DNA from: Candidatus Wolfebacteria bacterium
GTDB lineage: Bacteria > Patescibacteriota > Minisyncoccia > UBA6257 > UBA9933
Assembly: GCA_024654025.1 (NCBI GenBank)
Contig: JANLIR010000002.1
Span: forward strand, 21,885-85,884
DNA length: 64,000 nt
Reading direction: 5' to 3'
The notes beneath the pieces were generated by a model that was not told the origin of the DNA, made no database searches, and saw nothing but the letters and a program-made list of their open reading frames with translations. Shown here one piece after another: positions 8,118-60,499 of this stretch (position 1 is the first letter of the stretch; every line of letters starts with the position of its first letter). The translations under genes and the position numbers were made by a program.

Positions 8118-8675
8118 TTATTTACGGAAAGCGCTTATCAAATAAAACGCCACTATCCCAAAAGCCACTACTACATTTAATGACTCCTTCCGGCCATACA
8201 TCGGAATTTCCAAAATTTTATCCGCTTTTTTCAAAATCGGTTTCGGCAAACCCTTAATTTCATTTCCAACGATTAACGCAATTTTGTTTTTCAGTTTTTT
8301 AGTTTTTGAGTATTTTAGTTTATTATACGGAATTGAATTCTTACTTTGCTCAATCGCGAAAATTTTATATTTTTCCTTTTTGAGCTTATCAATCAATTTT
8401 GAAATTGCTTGTGCTGAGCCCTTCGGTCCTGAGCTCAGGGTCGAAGGACGCGCCGAACCAATTTTCTCCCAAGCTACATATTTTTCCGCTCCCAAAGAAA
8501 CTTTTGTCAGTTGCTGTCTCGGCCGTCCAAAAACATCCGCCGGAGCCGGAGTTATCCCGCATAAATAAAGTTTTTTAATTCCCACCGCATCCGCAGTCCG
8601 GAAAATAGACCCCACATTATGCAAACTCCGAATGTTGTAAAGTAAACCAACCATAATGACTCTATTATAACCCAA
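8118..8675 (-). CDS. SpoU/TrmH-family RNA 2'-O-methyltransferase
   Basis: 185 aa, SPOUT-like (IMVGLLYNIRSLHNVGSIFRTADAVGIKKLYL...LIVGNEIKGL). It overlaps the start of the downstream giant gene by 11 nt. Confidence 0.6.
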   Translation of the reverse strand: MGYNRVIMVGLLYNIRSLHNVGSIFRTADAVGIKKLYLCGITPAPADVFGRPRQQLTKVSLGAEKYVAWEKIGSARPSTLSSGPKGSAQAISKLIDKLKKEKYKIFAIEQSKNSIPYNKLKYSKTKKLKNKIALIVGNEIKGLPKPILKKADKILEIPMYGRKESLNVVVAFGIVAFYLISAFRK

Positions 8676-11600
8676 TTTTCATATACCAATCCTCTCTTCC
8701 ACTTTCATACGAATAAGAACAACTATTACTATAAAATAAATGCTCTCCGCCCGCGTAAAGATCCTCTCTGCTAACAGCGTTTTGCCACTGATTCCTTGAC
8801 CATTGGTCATCATTATTTCCGCCAACATAACTATCAACCTCCAATAACATCCAATATTTTTTGTTGACCGCAAACGCTACGGGAAAAGAAAAATTAAAAA
8901 CTAAATCAGAAGAAGGGCTATAAATATCAGCCAATACCGAACTGGCTAATTGCGAATTCAAATCAGGTCTATCTTTGCCGTCGTCGTTGAATACCGACAA
9001 TTTTAAATTAGCGCCGTCTGTTCCTGTGTTATGCATAACCTTCACAACGGCTTTATCAAACTGAAAATCTTTTTCCGGAACAATACTCTGCGCGCTTTTG
9101 GCAACGCATCCCGAAAAATATTTGTTCCCAAAAGGATAGCTCCAGTTATTGGCTTGAGTTTGAGTTATTTCAAAATTAATATCAGGGTATTTCCAATTCG
9201 CCGTCAAAGCGCTTGAAGTTACTCCGAATTCATCTTTAGCGCGCGCGCTTATTGAAAAATCATCGCCCGACGTAACGGACTTTACTGTACCGGTCGCATA
9301 GACAGCTTGCCACTCGCCAGAATCATTGTATCGAATCTCATAACTTAACAAAGATTCAACAGTATCTGAGTCACTGGCTTTGGACCAATCAATAGCGAGT
9401 TTGGAATTTTGCTTATCAAAAACCAAATTAATAGAGCCTGTCAATTGTGGCGCCTCATGAATAGGTTCCTTGCCAAAATAATATTTCTTTTTATCAACAG
9501 CTACTAATCGAAAAATTTCCGGGCCGCCGTTTGGTATGCTTGAATGCTCAAAAGAATAATAGCCGGCAGTTATGTAATCGCTCGCTGAAAAAGATGTTTG
9601 ATCAGCGGTTTTTTCAAGCGGAACAAAAAATTTATTAATCCCCAAACTGGAAATAGCAAATCTTTCGGTGCCTATTCCCAAACCATTGCATCTTTGGGGA
9701 GTGTCCGCTAAAATCAAGGCCTTAAATCGCGATTCTCCTCCCGTTGACGCACACGGAATATACCGGACGCCGATTACCTTAAAAAAATCTTCCGCCGGCC
9801 ACTTCCAATTATAGCCGTCGCCAAAAGGATTCTCTATGTACGTTTGTTTCGATGGCTCGCTATTTAAATAAAAAACAACGACTTTCCAGCCATCAGGCGC
9901 GTATAAACTCGGCGCGATCGGATATTGGCTATATTTTCCTTCAACCAAATAATCGCTTTGATTTCTAGGGTCTTTATAAAAATAAAGTCCGGAAAGAAAG
10001 CTCGGCGCCGAAACTGTTGTTGTGGCGCTCGCCAAAATCGAGCTACTCGCGTCAACCGCTTCGACTAATAAATCATAATTTCTGCCAACCTCATCAATTA
10101 CAATACTTGCCGACGTGGATGAAGATTGATTTAAAATAGCGCTTGAAGAAGCATCTAATATTCTGTAACCAATCTCTGTGCTTGAAGAATCAATACTAGT
10201 TACAGCTTGCCAACTCAAATCTATCCTCATTGAATCTTTAACAAAAACAGCCGAAAGGCCGTTTAAAATCGAAGAAGAAGTTGCGTCAGAAGTTGATGTT
10301 GATAAAGTTGATGTTGACGCGGTTTGCTCTTGCGAATAAGAATACGAATCGATTATTTGAGTACCCGAAGCGCTGGAAATTAAGTTTTGATTAGAAACCA
10401 AAAACAAAGCTCCTTTAGTATTATTTAAAGCCTGGCTCCACGATAAATCCGCACCCTGACATGGAGTAGCGGCGTGGCAATTCGCGCCGATTTTAAAATA
10501 ACCTTGGCTTAAAATTTTATTTCCATTTTCGAAATTTCTTTTTTTAATGTTTGAGAAATCCTCGTCAGCAGCCAAATACTGAATGGAAAAATTACTTAAA
10601 TCAACATCGCTTTCTTCAGAATTAAAAATTCTCGCGTATTCATTACCTTCATCCGCGCCTTCAGGGTTATAAACAACTTCCGTGATTTTTAACCTTAAAC
10701 TGCTTACATTAGTTGAACTTGCGGTAGAAGTGGAATTTGTAGAAGTTGAATTAGAACTAGACGCCTGATTAGACGCTTGATTAGATACTTGAGAATTTTG
10801 AGTTGTGTTATTAGCAATAACTACTCCGCCTCCGCCATAAACAACCGAATTTTCCGCTTTCGGCGTTCCGCCGACATACGCCGACGTGTGCCAACCAAAA
10901 TCACCGCCATTTCGCTCCATTGTCTTTTTCAAATAATTGTCGCCAGCTAACCAACTAGAACCAGCCAGAACTTCGTCCATTAAATTACATTGTCCATCAA
11001 ACAATCTTAAACCCTCGTCGCTGTTAGAAAGCGCGCCGGTATAAATTAAATCCGCCTTAACGTTGAGCGTGGAATTATCATCCGTTCTTTCCAAAAGGAT
11101 AAATCCGCCGCTAGATAAATTTCTGTTTTTCAATTGAGATAAATTAACTTCTATTTGCCTGCCTTTGTTAATTATTTGCCAATTAGAAAGATCAATATTT
11201 TGATTTGAAATATTTTTCAATTCTACCCATTCGTCGTTAGCGCTGACAGCTGAACCCATCCACGCTACTTCATTTATTAAAACTTTATTCCGTAAAGGAG
11301 TTTGAGAATTATTAAAAAGACATTTAGCAGCTACCTGGTTTGTTAAATTAATTTCCGTTTGAGAACCGCTGGATTTTTTATCGCTATTTTTTTCAACAAG
11401 CGAAGAAGTTGAATTTTTATCCGAATTTTTATCAATGGTTGTTTTTTGGCTGTCGCTTTTCTTTACGTTTAGACTCTTTGAACTACTACTATCATTAGGG
11501 CCAGAATTGCCAACTATTGATAAGTCCTTTTTTAAAGAAGCAATATCCTTTTTCAACGAGCTAATTTCACTTTTTAAAGATTTTATTTGGCTATTTTCAT

Positions 11601-12894
11601 CTCCGGCTGATTTAGATTTAACAGAATTCTTCGTATTTCTACTGCCTGAACTAATTTCATTCTGAACACTCAAATCATTAGTTAAAGAAACTTGGTCCGC
11701 TTGAGTAAAATCGTTTTGATTGCCAAAAAGCCCAGAAAAAAACTCTCCCACCGAAGAAAGAGTATTCTTTACCGTGCCAACAGCGCTGTCCCAAAAAGAA
11801 CCAATCACACCCTTGGCTTTTTCCGTTTCTCCATATAAGGAAACAATTGGCACCGTAGGAATATCTATTTTTGTCGCACTCGGCTGATAATCAACAACCT
11901 GGGCGTTTTCTTGCGCGTCTTTAAAAAAATTATTTATCACCTGAACGCCGGTTAAAACAACTTGTTTTGAGAGAAGATTCCAATAAGCCTGGTGAATGAT
12001 AGGATCGCTTATTAAAAAATTTTCATCTCCATCTGAAGCTTCAAATGGATAAAAATTTCCAAAATTATCGTGCCTGAAATAAATTTTCTTATCCGTGGTA
12101 ATTTCCGATGATTCACTGGTTAATTTTTTATATTTAGGATCATCAATTGTGTCTTTGCTGTAAAAATTTTCATTGGAGTATTTTGCTAATTTAATAAAAC
12201 AATCTTTTGTGTCAAAACAAGAAATACTTCCTTTAATATTCGAATTTGTTAAATTAGAAAAATTAATATTTTGGCTTTCTGCGGCCCATTTTTCATAAGG
12301 ATCAGCATCGTTTACTGCTTGATTTATTTCCGCGTGAGTATCGTTTCTGGTATGAGCCGGAACGCCTAAGTCTTCAATTAGATGCAAAACATAGCCCAAT
12401 GCCTTAAAAGAATTTTCATAAGTGGCGTAATCCGGCTTTACTGCCGCGCTGGTATTTCCCAGTCCGGCAAAAACATACGCCTGAACTGCTTTTGAATAAG
12501 TTTGATCGCCTTGGTAGAGTGAATATCTTCCTTGAAGTTTTTGATCAAACGCCCAATTTACAGAAGAAGTCGCGTCTTTTATTGAAAGGAAGATTTTTGA
12601 AAGAAGGTAAATTGTTTCTTTTGAAATATCTCCTTGTTTTTCTCCAGTCCAGCCCTGATTTAAAACCGGATCATAAAAATGATTAATCCATCTTGGCGGG
12701 GTGTCTTCTTTTATAGATCCGTTAATTATCCAATCCGCTTGCTCTTGAGATATTTTTACTCCGGAATTTTGGTTATAAACTTTTATAATTTCTCTTGTTA
12801 ATTCCTGATGGGTTGGGCTTGGCCAAAAAGCAAGAGACGAATTAAAAGAAAAAATAAATAAAAATAATATAGCCGCAAAGATTTTTTTGATCAT
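8665..12894 (-). CDS. Giant secreted protein with four elements. (1) An N-terminal zinc-dependent phospholipase C / nuclease-S1-P1-like domain. (2) A coiled coil. (3) Two lamin-tail (LTD) domains. (4) Ser/Thr-rich linkers and a C-terminal beta-rich region.
   Basis: Signal peptide MIKKIFAAILFLFIFSFNSSLA. The N-terminal domain carries HFYDPV...GW and YVLHLIEDLGVPAHTRND, resembling the PLC motifs SHFYDP and LHYLGDVNQPMH. The coiled coil is heptad-like (SLKSEISSLKKDIASLKKDLS). There are two LTD signatures, LINEVAWMGSAVSANDEWVELKN and LKITEVVYNPEGADEGNEYARIFN. 1409 aa. Confidence 0.6.
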   Translation of the reverse strand: MIKKIFAAILFLFIFSFNSSLAFWPSPTHQELTREIIKVYNQNSGVKISQEQADWIINGSIKEDTPPRWINHFYDPVLNQGWTGEKQGDISKETIYLLSKIFLSIKDATSSVNWAFDQKLQGRYSLYQGDQTYSKAVQAYVFAGLGNTSAAVKPDYATYENSFKALGYVLHLIEDLGVPAHTRNDTHAEINQAVNDADPYEKWAAESQNINFSNLTNSNIKGSISCFDTKDCFIKLAKYSNENFYSKDTIDDPKYKKLTSESSEITTDKKIYFRHDNFGNFYPFEASDGDENFLISDPIIHQAYWNLLSKQVVLTGVQVINNFFKDAQENAQVVDYQPSATKIDIPTVPIVSLYGETEKAKGVIGSFWDSAVGTVKNTLSSVGEFFSGLFGNQNDFTQADQVSLTNDLSVQNEISSGSRNTKNSVKSKSAGDENSQIKSLKSEISSLKKDIASLKKDLSIVGNSGPNDSSSSKSLNVKKSDSQKTTIDKNSDKNSTSSLVEKNSDKKSSGSQTEINLTNQVAAKCLFNNSQTPLRNKVLINEVAWMGSAVSANDEWVELKNISNQNIDLSNWQIINKGRQIEVNLSQLKNRNLSSGGFILLERTDDNSTLNVKADLIYTGALSNSDEGLRLFDGQCNLMDEVLAGSSWLAGDNYLKKTMERNGGDFGWHTSAYVGGTPKAENSVVYGGGGVVIANNTTQNSQVSNQASNQASSSNSTSTNSTSTASSTNVSSLRLKITEVVYNPEGADEGNEYARIFNSEESDVDLSNFSIQYLAADEDFSNIKKRNFENGNKILSQGYFKIGANCHAATPCQGADLSWSQALNNTKGALFLVSNQNLISSASGTQIIDSYSYSQEQTASTSTLSTSTSDATSSSILNGLSAVFVKDSMRIDLSWQAVTSIDSSSTEIGYRILDASSSAILNQSSSTSASIVIDEVGRNYDLLVEAVDASSSILASATTTVSAPSFLSGLYFYKDPRNQSDYLVEGKYSQYPIAPSLYAPDGWKVVVFYLNSEPSKQTYIENPFGDGYNWKWPAEDFFKVIGVRYIPCASTGGESRFKALILADTPQRCNGLGIGTERFAISSLGINKFFVPLEKTADQTSFSASDYITAGYYSFEHSSIPNGGPEIFRLVAVDKKKYYFGKEPIHEAPQLTGSINLVFDKQNSKLAIDWSKASDSDTVESLLSYEIRYNDSGEWQAVYATGTVKSVTSGDDFSISARAKDEFGVTSSALTANWKYPDINFEITQTQANNWSYPFGNKYFSGCVAKSAQSIVPEKDFQFDKAVVKVMHNTGTDGANLKLSVFNDDGKDRPDLNSQLASSVLADIYSPSSDLVFNFSFPVAFAVNKKYWMLLEVDSYVGGNNDDQWSRNQWQNAVSREDLYAGGEHLFYSNSCSYSYESGREDWYMKIGL

Positions 12895-12897
12895 AAA

Positions 12898-13530
12898 TTA
12901 ATTCTGGTAAAGCTTCCAAATCTGCGCTGGCTTACTGAATTGAAAAATTATTGAGCCTTGATATTTGCCCGCGGGGATTGTGCTAGTTTCCTCTGCGGCT
13001 GTATCATAAAAAGTATGATTTTTTTTCTGAATATATTCATACGCAAACTTTTTTGAATCTCTGTCCCAAAAATCAACTTCTTTCAAATTAGACCATTCAA
13101 TCGGTAATTTATTTACATACTCCCCCAACCATCCTTCACTTTGTAAACGCACTAACCATTTATACGCTCTTCCCGGGCCTTCAATGCCGATGTAATACTT
13201 TGAAGCAAGCAAAATATCGCCTTTCTTTAAAGCATCCAAATACATAAAATAAGTTTCTTCCGGAGTTTTCCCTCCGTACTTATCGTTTTTTAGAGCGTTT
13301 AAATAATCCTGCTCAGCCGAAAAATAAGCGTCGAATCCCCTTTGAGCAAAATAATCATTGTACAAAGTTTTTAAGATCGGATACCCAACAAAAAGTGCGA
13401 TGATAATCGCCAAAAAACTCAAAACAAATTTTCGATACGATTTCTTTTGGACCGGAGACAGCGAAGAATCGGGTGAAGAATTGAAAGAATCATTTGAACC
13501 GCTTTCCGAATCTTGATTTTGGAGTTCCAT
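12898..13530 (-). CDS. Hypothetical membrane-anchored protein (Ser-rich N-terminus, one TM helix), co-operonic partner of the giant PLC/LTD protein
   Basis: 210 aa; TM helix FVLSFLAIIIALFVGYPIL; its stop is 3 nt upstream of the downstream giant ORF's start codon. Confidence 0.45.
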   Translation of the reverse strand: MELQNQDSESGSNDSFNSSPDSSLSPVQKKSYRKFVLSFLAIIIALFVGYPILKTLYNDYFAQRGFDAYFSAEQDYLNALKNDKYGGKTPEETYFMYLDALKKGDILLASKYYIGIEGPGRAYKWLVRLQSEGWLGEYVNKLPIEWSNLKEVDFWDRDSKKFAYEYIQKKNHTFYDTAAEETSTIPAGKYQGSIIFQFSKPAQIWKLYQN

Positions 13531-13749
13531 AAATTTTTTGTGTTAATTATTTATAATTTTAATTTCTAAGACTATATTTTACAATAGGCCAAAAACAAAA
13601 ATTTTGTCTTCTGAAACCCATAAGTAATTTAGATCTAAAATTTCAAAACACAAATTAAATAATATTTTTAACCTCCGGTTTTAAAAACAAAAAAAGAGCT
13701 TAGAGCGCTGGTCTAAAAAAAATAATTCGGCAGTCCGTCATCTGGTGAG

Positions 13750-14029
13750 TTGCCGAATTATTGTTTGCCGAACTATTTGTGATTGGCTTTGCCGAACCAA
13801 CTATCCTAAACTTATCAATAAAGGATTGCCGAACTAGTTGTGGCGAGCCTGCCGAATTATTTATAATATATTTATCTAACTGCTTACAATAAATTTTACA
13901 GAGTCATTGCCGAACTCATCAATAGTAATCTTGCCGAACTAAACCGTACTACTATACCAAACTTTGCCGAACTTTTTGCCGAATTACTTGTGGTAATCCG
14001 TCAGCTGACGGACGGACTCTTGCCGAACT
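13750..14029. repeat. Noncoding array of ~10 direct copies of TTGCCGAA(C/T) with irregular 7-55 bp spacing, plus one inverted copy at 13724-13732 and a 16-bp palindrome TCCGTCAGCTGACGGA
   Basis: Counted directly in the sequence; no ORF of 60 aa or more in 13531-14240. Confidence 0.7.
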
Positions 14030-14200
14030 ACTGCCTATTTTAACAAAAACCAGCCTGATTCAATCCCATCACTAACTCAATACACCTATTATTTAAAGCA
14101 GCAAAATAACTAAAATCGCCTCCATTAAAACTCAAAATTTTAAACGCTCCTCAACACATCATTTATCCCCCGCTTAAACCCCACTCAAAAGTTATCCACA

Positions 14201-14240
14201 TTTACTACAATAACCTGCGATCGCAGGTTATTGTAGTAAA
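14201..14240. repeat. Perfect 40-bp palindrome TTTACTACAATAACCTGCGATCGCAGGTTATTGTAGTAAA
   Basis: Exact reverse-complement symmetry; it abuts the stop codon of the wHTH/Cas2-like gene and a perfect DnaA-box 9-mer (14192-14200). Confidence 0.9.
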
Positions 14241-14846
14241 TTAAAAATTCCCTTCAAGCGTTCCTTTTTTATCTATGGAAAAAATCTCTACATAATGCAA
14301 AATGTCTAAATTTTTAAGATCGTCGATAAAATCTTTGGGCAATTTATTCTTGCTAATCCAAACGCTTTTTTGTAGCATAGAAAACCCGAGGGCAATTAAA
14401 TTTTCCCGCAGCCAATTTCTTTTTCGCTTTTCCTCTTCGGGAATATCAAAAATAACTATCTTTAATTTTCCATCTCTGTCACTTTCTTTCGTATAAATTT
14501 TATAAGGTAATTTATTTTCTTTTTTTAACTTTAACTCATTAAGCTTCTTTTCTCCTTTTTTGGTTATCTTCCATTTAGAACGGTTGTTCTCTTTAGTTCT
14601 TTTAACTAAACCTTGTTTTTGAAGATAACCTAAAAGATTATAAAAACGCTGTTGTTCTTTCTTTTTATATTGTTCGTAACTTAATTTTGAAGAATTTTCA
14701 AAAAGTTCTTTATAGAAAGGGCCGTATTTAATCTTTCGCTTCGCTTTCTTATAAGAGTCGTGATAATTCTTTAAAATAATATCAATTAGGTCTATGCTAA
14801 GCTCCCCAAATTTCTTCGCAGCTTCCAAAATAAATTCTGTTTTCAT
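14241..14846 (-). CDS. Small protein with an N-terminal winged-helix domain and a C-terminal Cas2-fold (Cas2/VapD-like) domain
   Basis: ...FYNLLGYLQKQGLVKRTKENNRSKWKITKKGEKKL is wHTH-like. KIVIFDIPEEEKRKRNWLRENLIALGFSMLQKSVWIS matches the Cas2 beta1-alpha1-beta2 pattern (VxxYDI..RRR..L.K.L...G.R.Q.SV). The likely ATG is at 14846; the track ORF starts with TTG at 14855. Confidence 0.5.
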   Translation of the reverse strand: MKTEFILEAAKKFGELSIDLIDIILKNYHDSYKKAKRKIKYGPFYKELFENSSKLSYEQYKKKEQQRFYNLLGYLQKQGLVKRTKENNRSKWKITKKGEKKLNELKLKKENKLPYKIYTKESDRDGKLKIVIFDIPEEEKRKRNWLRENLIALGFSMLQKSVWISKNKLPKDFIDDLKNLDILHYVEIFSIDKKGTLEGNF

Positions 14847-14860
14847 GATGAGCAATTAAT

Positions 14861-14900
14861 TTTACTACAATGACCTGCGATCGCTGGCTATTGTAGTGAA
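14861..14900. repeat. Imperfect 40-bp palindrome TTTACTACAATGACCTGCGATCGCTGGCTATTGTAGTGAA, a near-copy of 14201-14240
   Basis: Same arms and GCGATCGC core with about 3 mismatches; it lies between the trxB stop and the wHTH/Cas2-like start. Confidence 0.85.
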
Positions 14901-15818
14901 TTATTTTATTTTAAGGTAATCGTAGATATTTAAGACCGCTTTGATGGCGTCGCCGGCGGCGATGTTATTTTGATTGTATAAAACGTCAGTAACGTCCCCT
15001 GCCGCCCAAATACCCTCCGAAGAAGTTTTCTGAGTTTTTTGGTCAATAATAATTCTTCCGTACTTATCCAAATCAATCAAATCTTTCACGCTTTCGCTGT
15101 TTGGCTGGAATCCGATTTCCACAAAAACGCCTTCAACCGAAAGCTCTTTCATTTCTCCGGTCTTCCTGTTCTGGTATCTGATTCCTTTTACGAATTCGTC
15201 TCCAAAAATTTCTTTTACTTCAGCCATTGTTATCTCTTGAGATTTTCCCGAGGCTCTTACCTTATCGCAAGTCACGGAATCAGCCTTGCACTCTTCCGTA
15301 TATTCCAAAATGTAAATTTTATTAGCGTAAGGCAATAAATCCATGGCTGCTTCAAAACCGGAATTTCCCCCTCCAACAACAGCCGTGGTTTTGTTTTTCA
15401 TAAGAGGCGCATCGCAGGTAGAACAATAAAAAACGCCTTTTCCATCGTATTTATCTTCTCCCGGAACATTAAGCCGCTTGTGCCGGCTGCCGGCTGTAAG
15501 TAAAATCGTTTTTGTTTCAAATTTATCCCCTTTGTCGGTAAAAACCGAGATAACTTCCCCTTGTTTTTCAATCTTAGAAACAAAAACATTGTCTTTTATT
15601 TCAATATCTTCCTGGTCGCGAAGATGACCCTCCAAATTTTTGGCAAGCTCGAAACCGGAAATATCTTTAACTCCTATCCAATTTTTAATACCCGCAGAAA
15701 CAAGAGATTGTCCCCCAAAATCCTTGGTTAAAAAAAGCGTATTTATTTTTTTCCTGGCCGCGTAAACTCCAGCCGCTACTCCGGCCGGACCGCCGCCGAT
15801 AATTATCAATTCGTACAT
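14901..15818 (-). CDS. trxB: Thioredoxin-disulfide reductase
   Basis: MYELIIIGGGPAGVAAGVYAARKK FAD-binding GxGxxG motif; the active-site region includes CSTCDAP (CxxC); NADPH site GGGNSGFEAAMDL. Likely start is M17 of the track ORF. Confidence 0.85.
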   Translation of the reverse strand: MYELIIIGGGPAGVAAGVYAARKKINTLFLTKDFGGQSLVSAGIKNWIGVKDISGFELAKNLEGHLRDQEDIEIKDNVFVSKIEKQGEVISVFTDKGDKFETKTILLTAGSRHKRLNVPGEDKYDGKGVFYCSTCDAPLMKNKTTAVVGGGNSGFEAAMDLLPYANKIYILEYTEECKADSVTCDKVRASGKSQEITMAEVKEIFGDEFVKGIRYQNRKTGEMKELSVEGVFVEIGFQPNSESVKDLIDLDKYGRIIIDQKTQKTSSEGIWAAGDVTDVLYNQNNIAAGDAIKAVLNIYDYLKIK

Positions 15819-15828
15819 AAAAATATAT

Positions 15829-16056
15829 TTAAAGCCCCAATGCCTTATCAATCCCCGCCTTGTCAAACCCGACGATAATCGTATTGTTGATATCCAAAAC
15901 AGGTACGCCCATCTGATGCGATTTCTGAATCATTTCTCTTGCAGCCGCCTCGTCTTCCTCGACATTCACTTCTTTAAATTTTATATCATTTTTCTCTAAA
16001 TATTCCTTCGCCATATGACAATAGGGGCAAACCGAAGTGGTATAAATCGTAATCAT
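15829..16056 (-). CDS. Glutaredoxin-like protein (NrdH/GrxC-like)
   Basis: 75 aa with a CPYC active site (MITIYTTSVCPYCHMAKEYL). Confidence 0.75.
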   Translation of the reverse strand: MITIYTTSVCPYCHMAKEYLEKNDIKFKEVNVEEDEAAAREMIQKSHQMGVPVLDINNTIIVGFDKAGIDKALGL

Positions 16057-40851: not shown

Positions 40852-40945
40852 AACTCCCCCTATCTTTCTGTATTATTTTTTTGGGAAATCTACTAACGAA
40901 ACTATATAGCTCTAAAGTATTTGAAGTCAAGTAAAAAATAAGCGT

Positions 40946-41380
40946 TTATAAGCGCTTATTTTTTATAACTGTTTTTATTTTCCCAATAATTTTGCCAATC
41001 TCTTGTTTCGATAAAATCTTTCTTTCCTTTCTGTAATTATCTATATCTCCCAACAAAACTTTCGGAATAATATGGAAATGAAAATGCTTTATGCTTTTAC
41101 CGGCGTTATTGCCGTCTCTCCCTAAAATTGAACAATCTTTATAACCAAAAGATTGGAGTATTTTTACGGCTAAGCTCACTAAATCCAACATTTCATCTCG
41201 TTCTTTTTTTCTTAAATCTAAAAAGGACTCAGTATGACGCTTAGGGACAACCAGCAAATGATCCTTATGATAAGGGGCTAACGCGTAAGTTAAAAAAGAA
41301 AACTTCTTTTCAATAATCCTTTCTTGCGGCAAACAAAAAGGGCATTGTTTTGATTTTTTCAGAAAATCGCCGTATAACAC
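40946..41380 (-). CDS. HIT-family nucleotide hydrolase/transferase
   Basis: HFHFHIIP histidine-triad motif; CPFC zinc-binding motif at the N-terminus. Confidence 0.7.
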   Translation of the reverse strand: MLYGDFLKKSKQCPFCLPQERIIEKKFSFLTYALAPYHKDHLLVVPKRHTESFLDLRKKERDEMLDLVSLAVKILQSFGYKDCSILGRDGNNAGKSIKHFHFHIIPKVLLGDIDNYRKERKILSKQEIGKIIGKIKTVIKNKRL

Positions 41381-44454: not shown

Positions 44455-45272
44455 TGTAATTGATTAATAGCGGCGATGACTTCTTCCTCATTCAAAGACT
44501 TTACGTGGCACAAAGCGTCGTTTTCCAGTTGAGGAACTCCTTTGCCTTTTATTGTATTGGCAATTAAAACTTTCGGCCGGCTGTTTTTGGCTTCTTTTAA
44601 TTTTTTCAAAGATTCCAGTACCACCGATACATCGTGGCCGTCTATTGTTTCAACGTCCCATTTAAAGGCCCTAAACTTTTCTTCAAGCGGCAATAAATCA
44701 ATAATATTTTTACAATAATCAAGCATGGCTATTTTATTGCTGTCGATAATCAGCACCAAGTTTTCTAATTTATGCTCAGACGCAAACATAACAGCCTCCC
44801 AAACCGCGCCTTCATATAATTCCCCATCTCCCATCAAAACAAAAACCGTTGAATCGGAATTCTTATTTCTTAAAGCGATCGCTGATCCAGAGGCCACTCC
44901 TAATCCATGCCCCAACGCGCCGTTAATAGTTTCATAGCCTGGGATTGTTGTATCGGGAATGCCTCCCAAAAAAGATCCTTCGTGGCAAACTTTTTCTAAT
45001 TCGCTCTTATCAAAAAAACCCAGGTCCGCCAGTATCGGATACAAAGATATAGAGCCGTGGCCTTTGCTGATTATAAATCTGTCCCTTTCCTCCCATCGGG
45101 GATTTTTAGCGTCAAATTTTAAAACTCCTCCATAATACAAGGCCACAAAAATTTCAACGTCTGACAAAGACGAAGCGAGGCGGGTTTCCGGAGCAATTTT
45201 ATGGATATTTAACGTCTCTTTTCTGACCCACAAGGCTTTTTCTTTTAAAGATTCCGGTGAAAAATTAGTCAT
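44451..45272 (-). CDS. Transketolase, N-terminal (ThDP-binding) subunit
   Basis: ...GHGSISLYPILADLG...GALGHGLGVASGSAIA...VLMGDGELYEGAVWEA; overlaps the C-terminal subunit by 4 nt. Confidence 0.75.
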   Translation of the reverse strand: MTNFSPESLKEKALWVRKETLNIHKIAPETRLASSLSDVEIFVALYYGGVLKFDAKNPRWEERDRFIISKGHGSISLYPILADLGFFDKSELEKVCHEGSFLGGIPDTTIPGYETINGALGHGLGVASGSAIALRNKNSDSTVFVLMGDGELYEGAVWEAVMFASEHKLENLVLIIDSNKIAMLDYCKNIIDLLPLEEKFRAFKWDVETIDGHDVSVVLESLKKLKEAKNSRPKVLIANTIKGKGVPQLENDALCHVKSLNEEEVIAAINQLQ

Positions 45273-50725: not shown

Positions 50726-50730
50726 GAACT

Positions 50731-50754
50731 AAAATCCCCCTTTCGGGGGATTTT
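50731..50754 (-). terminator. Terminator hairpin downstream of the 1651-aa surface-protein gene
   Basis: AAAATCCCCC-TTTC-GGGGGATTTT perfect stem. Confidence 0.55.
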
Positions 50755-50768
50755 AGTTTCCGCAATTT

Positions 50769-55724: not shown

Positions 55725-55928
55725 TTTTTTAAAAACCGCGAACTGAAAATTATTTGCTTATAATTTTACAGATCTACGACTCTTTATTATAAAAAACAAG
55801 ACCTTTTTTATTTTAAAAAAACAAAAATTGGGAGATAGTTTCTCTTAGTTTAATTATACAATATTTAAGGAAATGGAAATTGTGGATAACTATTTAGATA
55901 CGGACAATCTGCATTGGTCCGTGAATTC

Positions 55929-55952
55929 AAAAACCCCCTCTCGGGGGTTTTT
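55929..55952 (-). terminator. Bidirectional-looking rho-independent terminator after the 1084-aa gene
   Basis: AAAAACCCCCTCTCGGGGGTTTTT. Confidence 0.7.
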
Positions 55953-56000
55953 GAATTGGTCGGTTATGCGCTACCGACAAACTCCAATCAGTTATTCAGG

Positions 56001-59788: not shown

Positions 59789-60499
59789 TTATTTAGCCAC
59801 ATAATAACTGCCCGGACCAGTACTTCCGATTCTAGAAACCAAGCCCTGATCGCAAAGTCGCAAAAGATAAAATCTAACAGTTCTTTCGCTTATATCAGGA
59901 AAAGAGGCTAATAATTCTTTAGTGGTTGTTTTACCTAATTCTTGTACTTTTTTAAATAAACGATTTTGCCGATCTTCGTCGTCCTGAGGTTGCCGAAAGA
60001 TTGCCGAACTCTTTTCGCTCTTGTCCTGAGCTTGCCGAAGGATTGCCGAACTCCTCTCATCTTGCCGAACTATTGCCGAACTACTTGTGGTGAGCTTTGC
60101 CGAACTAACTTGTCCTGAGTTTATCGAAGGATTATTTATATCAAATAAAGGCGCTGGAACTTTTGCAAAAATTCTGTCTATTGCCGAACTTTTTTCTTTC
60201 TCTTGCCGAATTGCCGAATTCCATTGCCGAACTGCTTCTTTTAAATTATCTATTTCCCTAAAAAGTATAAAAGCGTTAATTTTGCCGATCTCTTCCACTA
60301 CTTCTGCCAAACGAATAAGTTGTTCCAATTTTTCCAAGTTATCCACAACTCCAAGATTGGCAATAATATCCACAGAGGCGTTTTCCAGCTCAATTTTAAG
60401 CTTTGGCTGTTTTATAATATTGGCGCACCTAAAAACCGCCCAAGCAATCTCGAAAGACCTATTTTTAATAAATTCCACATCCCCTGTGATCATAGCCAT
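59789..60499 (-). CDS. Putative DNA-binding protein: N-terminal helical domain, low-complexity 'SSAI' repeat linker, C-terminal winged helix
   Basis: The C-terminus TTKELLASFPDISERTVRFYLLRLCDQGLVSRIGSTGPGSYYV is DeoR/MarR-like wHTH. The central region is encoded by the TTGCCGAAC repeat array, so the ORF could alternatively be a read-through of a DNA-level repeat. Confidence 0.4.
   Translation of the reverse strand: MAMITGDVEFIKNRSFEIAWAVFRCANIIKQPKLKIELENASVDIIANLGVVDNLEKLEQLIRLAEVVEEIGKINAFILFREIDNLKEAVRQWNSAIRQEKEKSSAIDRIFAKVPAPLFDINNPSINSGQVSSAKLTTSSSAIVRQDERSSAILRQAQDKSEKSSAIFRQPQDDEDRQNRLFKKVQELGKTTTKELLASFPDISERTVRFYLLRLCDQGLVSRIGSTGPGSYYVAK
59990..60235. repeat. Second array of ~11 copies of TTGCCGAA(C/T), embedded within ORF 59789..60499
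   Basis: Counted directly; copies occur in all three reading frames relative to the ORF; TTGCCGATC variants lie at 59966 and 60273. Confidence 0.7.

What the first reader, a model, noticed from the sequence alone, without database searches (positions are those of the whole stretch)
14192..14903. wHTH + Cas2-fold gene exactly bracketed by two 40-bp GCGATCGC-centred palindromes
A 200-aa protein combines a winged-helix domain with a Cas2/VapD-like beta1-alpha1-beta2 core (KIVIFDIPEEEKRKR...LQKSVWIS, with the Asp in the position of the Cas2 catalytic Asp). It is flanked within 1 bp of its stop and 15 bp of its start by near-identical 40-bp palindromes. One is perfect and the other has about 3 mismatches. 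No cas1 or CRISPR is nearby. The palindromes could be operator sites for the wHTH, very stable terminator hairpins (both lie at the 3' ends of minus-strand genes), or the boundaries of a small cassette. A stand-alone Cas2-fold nuclease with a DNA-binding domain next to an iterated-motif array is a plausible toxin, addiction or novel regulatory module.
Basis: partly seen in the sequence, partly recalled or inferred. Interest (0 to 1): 0.6.

Follow-up and report, generated by a model that had tools for sequence, protein, structure and literature searches.

The report
Mini-PaaX regulator gene bracketed by palindromes
A small DNA-binding protein of ultra-small (Patescibacteria) bacteria, built from a winged-helix domain plus a Cas2-like dimerisation domain, sits between two copies of its own 40-bp palindromic site; hundreds of relatives share this layout, each with private palindrome arms around a shared centre, and the gene has flipped in place several times, an architecture I found described nowhere in the papers I could search.

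Summary
ORF 14241-14846(-) (201 aa) lies between a perfect 42-bp palindrome (14200-14241) and an imperfect copy (14861-14900). These are the only two copies in 64 kb.

The fold call is right. The C-terminal half is Pfam PaaX_M ('PaaX central Cas2-like domain', E 9e-18). The AF2 model matches E. coli PaaX first, then Cas2 proteins. There is no cas1, CRISPR array or PaaX_C ligand domain.

The layout is family-wide:
- Of 125 non-redundant Patescibacteria homolog loci, 64 carry an upstream and a downstream palindrome and 16 carry one.
- Arms are locus-specific, the two copies within a locus are near-identical, and only the centre RCGR|YCGY is shared.
- The roughly 40-bp span equals the published E. 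coli PaaX operator, TGATTC(N27)GAATCA.

The sites lack U-tails, show no sense-strand G:U bias, and occur whatever the neighbours' orientation. Within a conserved DsbA-Grx-TrxB-[cassette]-p210-LTD frame, the gene has inverted in place at least four times. Perfect TTATCCACA boxes cluster beside the palindromes.

Best reading (about 0.55): an autonomous mini-PaaX repressor with cognate operators at both gene borders. The toxin, addiction and stand-alone-nuclease readings are unsupported. A self-encoded recombination or nuclease role is not excluded.

The parts
14861..14900 (.). Upstream palindrome (palB). Imperfect copy, 36/40 identical to palA. It lies between the trxB stop (14901) and the gene's ATG (14846).
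   Evidence: An equivalent upstream copy is present in 71 of 125 non-redundant homolog loci.
14241..14846 (-). Mini-PaaX gene, 201 aa. N-terminal PadR/MarR-like winged helix (about residues 57-110) plus a C-terminal Cas2-like PaaX_M domain (126-199). No PaaX_C domain.
   Evidence: Pfam PF20803 E 8.8e-18. TIGR01573 cas2 33 bits over residues 131-169 only. AF2 pLDDT 77 overall and about 91 in the C-terminal domain. Foldseek top hit is E. coli PaaX 8a39, then Cas2 proteins. 808 clusters at 50% identity reach E<=1e-30.
14200..14241 (.). Downstream palindrome (palA). Perfect 21+21 nt, overlapping the stop codon by 1 nt. A sigma-70-like TTGAAG-16-TACAAT match places a -10 hexamer in its arm, facing the downstream operon.
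   Evidence: An equivalent downstream copy is present in 73 of 125 loci.
14192..14200 (+). Perfect DnaA-box-like 9-mer TTATCCACA abutting the outer edge of palA, outside the cassette on the p210-LTD side.
   Evidence: Across homolog loci, 10 perfect boxes lie within 30 nt of a palindrome against 0.46 expected. The L106/L127 alignment places the box between the palindrome and the p210 promoter.
13717..14030 (-). Adjacent context, not part of the family-wide module. An array of about 12 (A)GTTCGGCAA motifs, ending on the minus strand in a hairpin (13717-13766) followed by a T-run. It is present only in relatives of 57% identity or more.
   Evidence: (I11).
14901..15866 (-). Context: thioredoxin-reductase-like gene (trxB). 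It forms the upstream border of the conserved frame DsbA-Grx-TrxB-[cassette]-p210-LTD.
8665..13530 (-). Context: p210 (12898-13530, no Pfam match) and a 1409-aa protein with lamin-tail domains (8665-12894). This operon forms the other border of the frame and is a candidate regulatory target.
   Evidence: In L005 a third palindrome copy follows the LTD gene.

Best explanation
The gene encodes a 'mini-PaaX': a winged-helix DNA-binding domain fused to the Cas2-like dimerisation domain of PaaX-family repressors, without the C-terminal ligand-binding domain.

Proposed mechanism (inferred):
- The protein binds as a dimer to its own roughly 40-bp palindromic sites.
- The conserved Cas2-like dimer sits over the conserved centre RCGR|YCGY.
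- The two variable winged helices read the locus-specific outer arms, about 11-20 bp from the centre. In the window these are TTACTA-N26-TAGTAA.
- One site lies 14 nt upstream of the start codon and would give autorepression by promoter occlusion, as PaaX does at its Px promoter.
- The other site lies at the stop codon and faces the neighbouring p210-LTD surface-protein operon. It would act as an operator, roadblock or insulator for transcription entering or leaving the gene.

Because each site is its own reverse complement, the two copies act as both direct and inverted repeats of each other. This keeps them alike (concerted evolution) and lets the whole gene flip in place.

Shown here: the domain architecture and fold, the family-wide pairing of gene and palindromes, their co-variation, the geometry, the lack of terminator features, and the inversions.

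Inferred, not shown: binding, repression and the regulatory targets.
For: Protein identity:
- PaaX_M E 8.8e-18. The N-terminal region gives weak PadR, MarR and HTH_45 matches.
- The AF2 model has a beta-alpha-beta-beta-alpha-beta C-terminal domain. The best PDB match is E. coli PaaX 8a39, followed by Cas2 proteins.

Association of gene and palindromes:
- In 164 homolog loci (760 kb), 137 of 168 long palindromes lie within 200 nt of the gene ends, which is 8.6% of the sequence. 133 of those have a CGRYCG-type centre.
- Of 125 non-redundant loci, 64 have both copies, 16 have one and 45 have none.

Co-variation and specificity:
- Arms differ between loci, and between paralogs in one genome. The two copies in a locus are 75-100% identical.
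- Between the two copies of a locus, the invariant blocks are the centre (positions 1-4) and positions 11-17 from the centre.
- Family-wide, only RCGR|YCGY is conserved.
- In the protein, the Cas2-like core is the conserved part (0.73) and the N-terminal DNA-binding half is the variable part (0.43-0.54).

Geometry: the E. coli PaaX operator is TGATTC(N27)GAATCA, 39 bp, and PaaX represses its own Px promoter (PMC9493321).

Against a terminator or RNA role:
- There are 2.8 T in the 8-nt tail against about 2.3 expected from background.
- Arm mismatches compatible with a G:U pair number 70 on the sense strand and 65 on the antisense strand.

Autonomy of the unit:
- Upstream copies occur beside co-directional (30) and divergent (15) neighbours. 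Downstream copies occur beside co-directional (26) and convergent (20) neighbours.
- The gene is found in both orientations within the same conserved frame.
- Extra copies sit at the borders of adjacent co-directional genes, for example L005, L073 and L161.
- A homolog that still carries PaaX_C (L174) is also bracketed by palindromes.
Against: - A simple operator model does not explain why a downstream copy is nearly always present, including beside convergent neighbours.
- It does not explain why the spacer (positions 5-10) stays self-complementary while differing between the two copies of a locus. There are 79 compensated double differences against about 10 expected. This points to a hairpin or cruciform state, or to palindrome-correcting template switching.
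- It does not explain why the centre is conserved when the E. coli PaaX spacer is not known to be.
- Downstream copies are perfect somewhat more often than upstream ones (40/81 against 26/75). That is not what pure autoregulation predicts.
- The Cas2 beta1 Asp and the FDIPE motif are invariant across the family, so catalysis cannot be excluded.
- 45 of 125 loci show no such palindrome.
- No binding, transcript or expression data exist.
Confidence: 0.55

Rival explanations
1. Self-encoded recombination or nuclease module. The palindromes would be recombination or cleavage sites. The wHTH-Cas2-fold protein, using the invariant Asp/Glu of FDIPE at the dimer axis, would nick or cut at the conserved RCGR|YCGY centre and so promote inversion, excision or re-integration of the cassette. 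The closest analogy is the Hin segment, where the hin gene lies inside an invertible segment bounded by palindromic hix sites.
For: - The gene has flipped in place at least 4 times between TrxB and p210-LTD, with breakpoints at the palindromes.
- One flip separates proteins that are 84% identical (L106 and L127).
- The centre is conserved family-wide while the arms are private.
- The Cas2 beta1 Asp is invariant.
- Both gene ends always carry a site whatever the neighbours.
- The two copies of a locus evolve in concert.
- The adjacent TTATCCACA boxes could be a site for an accessory host factor.
Against: - There is no serine or tyrosine recombinase, DDE or HUH signature. All invariant residues belong to the Cas2/PaaX_M structural core.
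- In PaaX, this domain is a dimerisation domain.
- 40-bp self-complementary repeats can recombine through host RecA, so rare flips over long divergence need no dedicated enzyme.
- Five contigs carrying the identical protein from related samples are all collinear, so there is no sign of active switching.
- Synteny is stable down to 35% identity.
Confidence: 0.15
2. RNA-level elements. The palindromes would act as stem-loops in transcripts, as factor-dependent terminators, processing sites or stability elements at both ends of the mRNA, possibly bound or cut by the Cas2-like (RNase-like) domain.
For: - The predicted hairpins are very stable (-28 kcal/mol).
- Both window copies follow stop codons of co-directional genes.
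- Self-complementarity is maintained by compensated changes.
- Downstream copies are slightly better preserved than upstream ones.
- Some Cas2 and VapD proteins are RNases (established knowledge).
Against: - No U-tract follows the stems. The same window has ordinary GC-stem plus T-run terminators at 55924-55957 and 50727-50758.
- Arm mismatches show no sense-strand G:U preference, 70 against 65.
- Upstream copies also occur in divergent promoter regions, 15 cases.
- Several upstream copies end only 3-10 nt before the ATG with no Shine-Dalgarno sequence. A 20-bp stem there would hinder translation.
- The closest homolog, PaaX, binds DNA.
Confidence: 0.1
3. Selfish, mobile cassette or toxin/addiction module. 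The pal-gene-pal unit would be a minimal transposable or homing element, or the protein a toxin.
For: - The gene is bounded on both sides by cognate repeats, like an insertion sequence.
- Several genomes hold 2 divergent paralogs in different contexts, for example L012 and L013, which are 72% identical with unrelated flanks.
- Homology between L106 and L127 starts exactly at the outer edge of the palindrome.
Against: - The position between TrxB and p210-LTD is conserved in at least 21 lineages down to 35% identity.
- Paralogs are old and carry different arms. No near-identical multi-copy elements were seen.
- There are 0 relatives in viral contigs.
- PADLOC returns only partial Cas2 matches. 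There is no antitoxin or partner gene.
- Third copies bracket ordinary neighbouring genes.
Confidence: 0.05
4. DnaA-linked chromosome site. The palindrome plus the TTATCCACA box would form a datA/DARS-like or centromere-like site, where a site-specific architectural protein and DnaA act together.
For: - Perfect DnaA-box 9-mers are about 20-fold enriched within 30 nt of the palindromes, 10 against 0.46 expected.
- 18 of 26 perfect boxes in the loci lie within about 230 nt of the gene.
Against: - Only about 10-15% of loci have the box.
- In L106 and L127 the box lies in the p210 promoter region. That fits DnaA, or another factor, acting as a co-regulator of transcription.
- GC skew shows no origin in the 64-kb window.
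- The orientation and spacing of the box vary.
Confidence: 0.05

Closest known systems
PaaX, the phenylacetyl-CoA-responsive repressor of the paa operon (E. coli W structure 8A39; TIGR02277; Pfam PaaX_M and PaaX_C)
   Same: - N-terminal winged helix followed by the Cas2-like central dimerisation domain (PF20803 E 9e-18; best Foldseek hit).
- The target site spans about 39-40 bp, with inverted outer half-sites separated by 26-27 bp (TGATTC-N27-GAATCA against TTACTA-N26-TAGTAA).
- PaaX also represses its own promoter (PMC9493321).
   Different: - No PaaX_C ligand domain (201 aa against about 305 aa) and no paa genes nearby. The score is far below the equivalog cut-off (41 against 264.55 bits).
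- The site is a perfect palindrome through the spacer, with a family-wide RCGRYCGY centre.
- Sites sit at both ends of the gene.
- The family is restricted largely to Patescibacteria.
Cas2 (CRISPR adaptation protein; TIGR01573, PF09827)
   Same: - Ferredoxin-like beta-alpha-beta-beta-alpha-beta fold.
- The motif [VI]x[FY]D[IVL]...R...L...G...Q.SV[FWY], including the beta1 Asp.
- NCBI's pipeline names close homologs 'CRISPR-associated endonuclease Cas2'.
   Different: - Profile matches cover only beta1-alpha1-beta2.
- It is fused to a winged helix.
- There is no cas1, no CRISPR array and no other cas gene.
- PaaX_M scores far better than Cas2 models. The database name is a misannotation.
Hin/Gin-type invertible segments (hin gene inside a segment bounded by palindromic hix sites)
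   Same: - A gene bracketed by two copies of a palindromic site.
- The bracketed segment is found in both orientations within an otherwise fixed frame.
   Different: - No serine or tyrosine recombinase domain.
- The sites are fully symmetric, with no polarity-defining core.
- Inversions are documented only between lineages, not within a population.
REP/RAYT and IS200/IS605 (a gene flanked by hairpin-forming repeats that its product recognises)
   Same: - A small gene flanked on both sides by similar hairpin-forming palindromes that co-vary with the gene.
- The encoded protein has a ferredoxin-like core.
   Different: - No HUH or Y1 motifs.
- The palindromes are not dispersed (2 in 64 kb, at most 5 per locus).
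- The position is syntenic over deep divergence.

Membership tests
PaaX-family regulator | [quoted passage not shown] | tested here: met
   Weak PadR, Mrr_N and HTH_45 profile matches at residues 60-110. PDB profile hits to PadR and MarR proteins. The AF2 model shows helix-helix-wing (H57-77, E81-86, E89-94).
PaaX-family regulator | Central Cas2-like dimerisation domain (Pfam PaaX_M, PF20803) | tested here: met
   E 8.8e-18, 64.6 bits against a cut-off of 24, residues 126-199. The Foldseek top hit is 8a39, E. coli PaaX.
PaaX-family regulator | C-terminal PaaX_C domain that binds phenylacetyl-CoA | tested here: not met
   No PF08223 match, and the protein ends at residue 201. More distant relatives of 236-290 aa do carry it, and one of them (L174) is also bracketed by palindromes.
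PaaX-family regulator | Equivalog-level score (TIGR02277) and paa catabolic genes in the neighbourhood | tested here: not met
   41.1 bits against a cut-off of 264.55. The neighbours are DsbA, Grx, TrxB, p210 and an LTD protein.
PaaX-family regulator | Operator made of two inverted half-sites about 27 bp apart, bound by the dimer | tested here: inconclusive
   The geometry matches: 40-bp palindromes, with conserved blocks at the centre and at 11-17 bp from it. Binding cannot be tested with these tools.
CRISPR-associated Cas2 | Ferredoxin-like fold with the beta1 Asp; score above model cut-offs | tested here: inconclusive
   The fold and the Asp are present. TIGR01573 gives 33.0 against a cut-off of 24.5. 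Pfam PF09827 gives 23.5 against 23.8. The matches cover only the first half of the model.
CRISPR-associated Cas2 | Encoded next to cas1 and a CRISPR array, as a stand-alone protein of about 90-110 aa | tested here: not met
   No CRISPR-like array in the 64-kb window. The neighbours are not cas genes. The domain is fused to a wHTH. Contexts of homologs show no cas genes.
VapD toxin | Match to the VapD family model | tested here: not met
   NF041506 gives 11.7 bits against a cut-off of 100.
Intrinsic (Rho-independent) terminator | GC-rich stem followed by a U-tract | tested here: not met
   The stems are AT-rich and 20 bp long. The scan calls neither palindrome. Tails average 2.8 T in 8 nt, and 16-17% have 5 or more T.
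REP-like dispersed repeat, or IS200/IS605 and RAYT elements | Many dispersed copies genome-wide; HUH/Y1 transposase | tested here: not met
   Only 2 copies in 64 kb. There are 0 matches in species-representative genomes. Extra copies occur only next to the gene. No transposase domain is present. A whole-genome count for this organism was not possible.
Site-specific DNA inversion system (Hin/Gin/Fim type) | Segment bounded by inverted sites and found in both orientations | tested here: met
   Both orientations occur within the conserved DsbA-Grx-TrxB-[X]-p210-LTD frame, with at least 4 flips. This holds only between lineages. One population sample was collinear.
Site-specific DNA inversion system (Hin/Gin/Fim type) | Serine or tyrosine recombinase that catalyses the inversion | tested here: not met
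   The encoded protein has no resolvase or integrase domain. None is encoded next to it in the window.

The most novel reading that the evidence does not exclude
The pal-gene-pal unit is a new kind of self-acting DNA element of Patescibacteria. A Cas2-fold domain, targeted by a fused winged helix, would act catalytically on hairpin, cruciform or duplex DNA at the conserved RCGR|YCGY centre of its own flanking palindromes. This would drive inversion, excision or copy-correction of its cassette, and so switch the adjacent surface-protein (p210-LTD) operon. That would make it a recombinase- or nuclease-type activity for a Cas2 relative outside CRISPR.
Probability: 0.15. Interest if true: 0.85.

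Novelty: new variant of a known kind. Interest (0 to 1): 0.62.

Why it matters
Patescibacteria have tiny genomes and few recognisable regulators.

- Scale: this is a large family (808 clusters at 50% identity with E<=1e-30, and at least 449 hits in species-representative genomes). Each member appears to come with its own readable cognate site.
- A test bed for recognition: the family offers hundreds of natural protein-DNA specificity pairs on one scaffold. It could be used to work out the recognition code of PaaX-type winged helices and to build orthogonal repressor/operator sets.
- Annotation: it corrects a systematic database error. These proteins are labelled 'CRISPR-associated endonuclease Cas2'.
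- Evolution of Cas2: the family shows the Cas2 fold used as a dimerisation platform over a conserved DNA centre. This bears on how Cas2 came to bind the middle of a DNA duplex in the Cas1-Cas2 integrase.
- Host attachment: the repeated in-place inversion next to a giant surface-protein operon raises a testable possibility. Orientation switching might control surface or attachment proteins in these episymbionts.

Tried and rejected
- Dispersed repeat. The pattern TTTACTNCAATN5GCGATCGCN5ATTG found nothing in 185,579 species-representative genomes. Hamming scans of every locus found extra copies only beside the gene.
- Cyanobacterial HIP1 (GCGATCGC). Rejected, because the family centre is RCGRYCGY and the organisms are Patescibacteria.
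- Replication origin. GC skew is monotonic across the window.
- Known RNA family. Rfam finds only tRNA-Leu in the window.
- The array region 13531-14200 as a decayed paralog of ORF 59789-60499. Only the motif copies match, and there is no protein-level homology.
- Family-wide link between the TTCGGCAA array and the gene. Rejected, because the array occurs only in relatives of 57% identity or more.
- Phage or defence origin. No relatives in viral contigs. PADLOC and PHROGs give only partial Cas2 matches or weak regulator matches.
- Active phase variation. Five contigs carrying the identical protein P0021 are collinear.
- Polarity from asymmetric centres (CGGTCG or CGACCG). Too few cases, and their relative orientations are mixed.
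- The first profile alignment (A1) was too diverse for locus finding, so I used a narrower one (A2).
- The TTHA0973 paper turned out to concern a TetR-type PaaR, not PaaX.
- Literature searches for this architecture found nothing.
Full report
**1. What is in the window**

The minus-strand ORF 14241..14855 is 204 aa from a TTG. It most likely starts at the ATG at 14846 (201 aa), because all close homologs begin MKTEF.

Positions 14200-14241 form a perfect 21+21-nt palindrome, ATTTACTACAATAACCTGCGA|TCGCAGGTTATTGTAGTAAAT. It overlaps the last base of the stop codon.

Positions 14861-14900 hold a second copy that differs at 4 of 40 positions. It has four non-Watson-Crick arm pairs. It lies 14 nt upstream of the ATG and directly after the stop codon of the upstream thioredoxin-reductase-like gene at 14901.

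Dinucleotide shuffles give 0.00 expected matches. No other copy exists in the 64-kb window, and the third GCGATCGC at 44875 is unrelated.

Both copies fold far better than shuffles, as RNA and as DNA.

**2. The protein**

Pfam assigns residues 126-199 to PaaX_M, 'PaaX protein central Cas2-like domain', at E 8.8e-18 and 64.6 bits against a cut-off of 24.

Cas2 models match only the beta1-alpha1-beta2 stretch. PF09827 gives 23.5 against 23.8 bits. TIGR01573 gives 33 against 24.5 bits. PADLOC Cas2 models reach E 1e-8.

The N-terminal half gives weak PadR, MarR and HTH_45 matches.

An AlphaFold2 model built on 33 homologs has mean pLDDT 77, and about 91 in the C-terminal domain. It shows a helix-turn-helix with a beta wing, followed by a beta-alpha-beta-beta-alpha-beta domain. 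Its best PDB match is E. coli PaaX (8a39), followed by many Cas2 structures and by the PaaX-like entries 3l09 and 3kfw.

Pairwise alignments place IVIFDIPEE...LQKSVW against Cas2 IVFFDLP...QKSVY and VVYDVSDD...IQRSAF. The Asp therefore sits in the Cas2 beta1 Asp column.

The window has no PaaX_C domain, no cas1, no CRISPR array and no paa genes.

The protein is best described as a 'mini-PaaX'. The NCBI name carried by close homologs, 'CRISPR-associated endonuclease Cas2', is a misannotation.

**3. The layout is a property of the whole family**

The family is large:
- 67 clusters in the indexed search.
- 808 clusters at 50% identity with E<=1e-30, and 3383 with E<=1e-10.
- At least 449 hits in species-representative genomes, almost all Patescibacteria/Parcubacteria lineages.

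I fetched 160 loci and scanned them with my own scripts.

- Of 168 long palindromes in 760 kb, 137 lie within 200 nt of the homolog's ends, which is 8.6% of the sequence. 133 of those have a CGATCG, CGGCCG, TGATCA or CG(GT/AC)CG centre.
- Of 125 non-redundant loci with enough flank, 64 carry an upstream and a downstream copy, 16 carry one and 45 carry none.
- The two copies in a locus are 75-100% identical.
- Arms differ completely between loci, and between paralogs in one genome.
- Family-wide, only the centre RCGR|YCGY is conserved.

In the nearest species-level relative (protein 57% identical), both palindromes are perfect. They read TTTACTCCAATTGTCAGCGATCGCTGACAATTGGAGTAAA and ...TTGTTGGCGATCGCCAACAA.... 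The outer arm and the centre are kept, and the spacer is changed symmetrically.

A homolog that still has PaaX_C (L174) is bracketed in the same way.

**4. What the palindromes are not**

- They are not ordinary terminators. The stems are AT-rich and 20 bp long, and no U-tract follows them. The same window contains canonical GC-stem plus T-run terminators elsewhere (I10 and I13).
- They show no sign of selection as sense-strand RNA hairpins. Mismatched arm pairs are G:U-compatible on the sense strand 70 times and on the antisense strand 65 times.
- They do not depend on being at the 3' end of a neighbouring gene. Upstream copies occur beside co-directional (30) and divergent (15) neighbours. 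Downstream copies occur beside co-directional (26) and convergent (20) neighbours.
- They are not a dispersed REP-like repeat.
- The family is absent from viral contigs.

**5. What they most likely are**

A review of the paa pathway gives the E. coli PaaX binding sequence as TGATTC(N27)GAATCA, a 39-bp site. It also states that PaaX represses its own Px promoter by hindering RNA polymerase (PMC9493321).

The palindromes here have the same span. In the window they read TTACTA-N26-TAGTAA.

Between the two copies of a locus, the blocks that do not vary are the centre (positions 1-4) and positions 11-17 from the centre. Positions 5-10 vary.

In the protein, the Cas2-like core is the conserved part (mean top-residue frequency 0.73). 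The N-terminal DNA-binding half is variable (0.43-0.54).

This parallel between conserved domain and conserved centre, and between variable domain and variable arms, fits one arrangement. The Cas2-like dimer axis would sit on the centre of the palindrome, and the winged helices would read the private arms.

The upstream site ends 3-60 nt before the start codon in most loci, with a median near 20 nt. That is where a promoter must lie. In several loci the proximal arm carries a -10-like hexamer a few bases before the ATG.

I therefore take the sites to be cognate operators of an autoregulated local repressor (confidence 0.55). Binding itself is inferred, not shown.

**6. What the simple operator model leaves unexplained**

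(a) A downstream copy is nearly always present.

(b) The spacer stays self-complementary although it differs between the two copies of a locus. I counted 79 compensated double differences against about 10 expected if the arms changed independently. This needs one of two things. Either a hairpin or cruciform state is under selection, or arms are corrected by intrastrand template switching at quasi-palindromes. The second is a known mutational process, cited here from general knowledge.

(c) The centre is conserved across the family.

(d) The Cas2 beta1 Asp and the FDIPE motif are invariant.

**7. The unit has inverted in place**

The frame DsbA-Grx-TrxB-[gene]-p210-LTD is conserved in at least 21 non-redundant lineages, from 35% to 100% protein identity.

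- The gene is co-directional with the frame in the window, L089, L005, L021, L039, L049, L067/L069, L106, L139, L014, L052, L058 and L105.
- It is reversed in L017, L018, L118, L050, L054, L032 and L127.

A neighbour-joining tree with Fitch parsimony needs at least four flips.

L106 and L127 have proteins that are 84% identical but opposite orientations. Reading outward from L106's downstream palindrome gives the same sequence as reading outward from L127's upstream palindrome. The order is: palindrome, a TTATCCAC(A) box, a TGTTATAAT extended -10, a G-rich ribosome-binding site, and the ATG of the p210 homolog.

Homology within the cassette starts exactly at the outer edge of the palindrome.

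The orientation states are coherent across independent assemblies. Mis-assembly is therefore unlikely to explain them, although 40-bp palindromes do break k=31 assemblies: contigs L003 and L004 end inside palA.

Each palindrome is its own reverse complement. Two copies can therefore recombine as inverted or as direct repeats. This explains both the flips and the concerted evolution of the two copies.

The flips also show that the gene works in either orientation. The unit must therefore carry its own expression signals.

Whether host recombination or the encoded protein causes the flips cannot be decided here. Five contigs with an identical protein from related samples are all collinear, so there is no evidence of active switching.

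**8. DnaA-box-like motif**

A perfect TTATCCACA abuts palA at 14192-14200.

In the non-redundant loci, 10 of 26 perfect boxes lie within 30 nt of a palindrome copy, against 0.46 expected. 18 of the 26 lie within about 230 nt of the gene.

The box usually lies outside the cassette. In L106 and L127 it lies in the p210 promoter region.

Only about 10-15% of loci have it. I read it as a co-regulatory site, bound by DnaA or by another factor that recognises this word. This is unproven.

**9. Extra copies and likely targets**

- In L005 a third copy follows the LTD gene.
- In L073, L161, L060, L145 and L064, extra copies sit at the borders of adjacent co-directional genes or in the neighbouring non-coding DNA.
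- In the window a sigma-70-like match (TTGAAG-16-TACAAT) places a -10 hexamer in palA, facing the p210-LTD side.
- The bracketed neighbours look like envelope or surface proteins. The LTD protein has lamin-tail and fn3 domains, and p210 has no Pfam match.
- Local control of these genes is a reasonable but untested target assignment.

**10. Comparison with known systems, and novelty**

The protein works like, and is homologous to, PaaX. It fails membership of the PaaX equivalog: it has no PaaX_C domain, no paa context, and scores 41 against 264.55 bits.

It is not a CRISPR Cas2, a VapD toxin, a REP/RAYT or IS200 element, or a recombinase-encoding inverton. Each of those fails a defining feature that I tested (see the membership table).

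The papers I could search held nothing on PaaX-like proteins bracketed by palindromes. The library lacks many subscription-journal papers, so this is not proof of absence.

I rate it a new variant of a known kind. The most novel reading not excluded is a catalytic role of the Cas2-fold domain at the palindrome centre, driving inversion or excision (probability about 0.15).

**11. Limits**

- There are no binding, cleavage, transcript or population-level data.
- The genome-wide copy number in this organism is unknown beyond 64 kb.
- Palindrome detection used fixed thresholds. Some of the 45 'none' loci may hold degenerate copies.
- ORF starts in the fetched loci are heuristic.
- Consensus promoter matches are not evidence of function.

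Noticed in passing
window 13717-14030 and 59990-60231: There are two arrays of about 10-12 copies each of TTGCCGAA(C/T) (29 copies in the window against 5.2 expected). The first is non-coding and ends, on the minus strand, in a hairpin plus T-run (13717-13766). It could be a discrete RNA of about 480 nt. The second lies inside ORF 59789-60499(-), which has a DeoR-like HTH at its C-terminus. There the DNA motif is read in two different frames (SSAI and xRQ), which suggests selection on the nucleic-acid motif rather than the peptide. Each array has a TGTGGATAAC about 110-165 nt upstream. The array occurs only in relatives whose mini-PaaX is 57% identical or more.
   Followed up: partly
window 14192-14200; loci L005, L009, L014, L017, L050, L054, L058, L089, L127, L161: Perfect DnaA-box-like TTATCCACA 9-mers lie within 30 nt of the palindromes, 10 observed against 0.46 expected. 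They are mostly just outside the cassette. In L161 all three palindrome copies have one.
   Followed up: partly
L005 10466-10509 (also L006 5534-5577): In the 57%-identity relative, a third perfect copy of the palindrome follows the LTD gene, so the p210-LTD operon is bracketed as well. The window has no such copy after its LTD stop at 8665.
   Followed up: yes
L003 and L004 (contig ends); many homolog contigs of 700-1000 nt: Short-read contigs end inside the palindrome, and many homologs sit on contigs about the size of the cassette. This is expected from self-complementary k-mers. It would also arise if both orientations co-existed in a population. I could not separate the two causes.
   Followed up: partly
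P0001, P0043: NCBI records name these wHTH-PaaX_M proteins 'CRISPR-associated endonuclease Cas2', evidently because TIGR01573 passes its cut-off on a partial match. This looks like a systematic misannotation in Patescibacteria MAGs.
   Followed up: yes
L012 and L013 (JACQAJ01); L035 and L044 (JACQRW01); L042 and L047 (CAZKCN01): Single genomes carry two paralogs in unrelated contexts, with different palindrome arms. L012 and L013 proteins are 72% identical. This suggests duplication followed by divergence into separate specificities.
   Followed up: partly
L176 3464-3491 and L177 3333-3360: A more distant homolog that carries PaaX_C (P0056) lies next to a tyrosine integrase gene. A different 28-bp perfect palindrome (GTAGAGACGTTCAATTGAACGTCTCTAC) lies between the two genes.
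   Followed up: no
window 1-64000: GC skew is negative throughout and nearly all genes lie on the minus strand, so the window sits within one replichore with co-oriented genes. Ordinary terminators (GC stem plus T-run) occur at 55924-55957 and 50727-50758.
   Followed up: no
window 40932-40965: There is another near-perfect 34-bp palindrome, TAAAAAATAAGCGTTTA/TAAGCGCTTATTTTTTA, with a different centre. It is unrelated in sequence to palA and palB.
   Followed up: no
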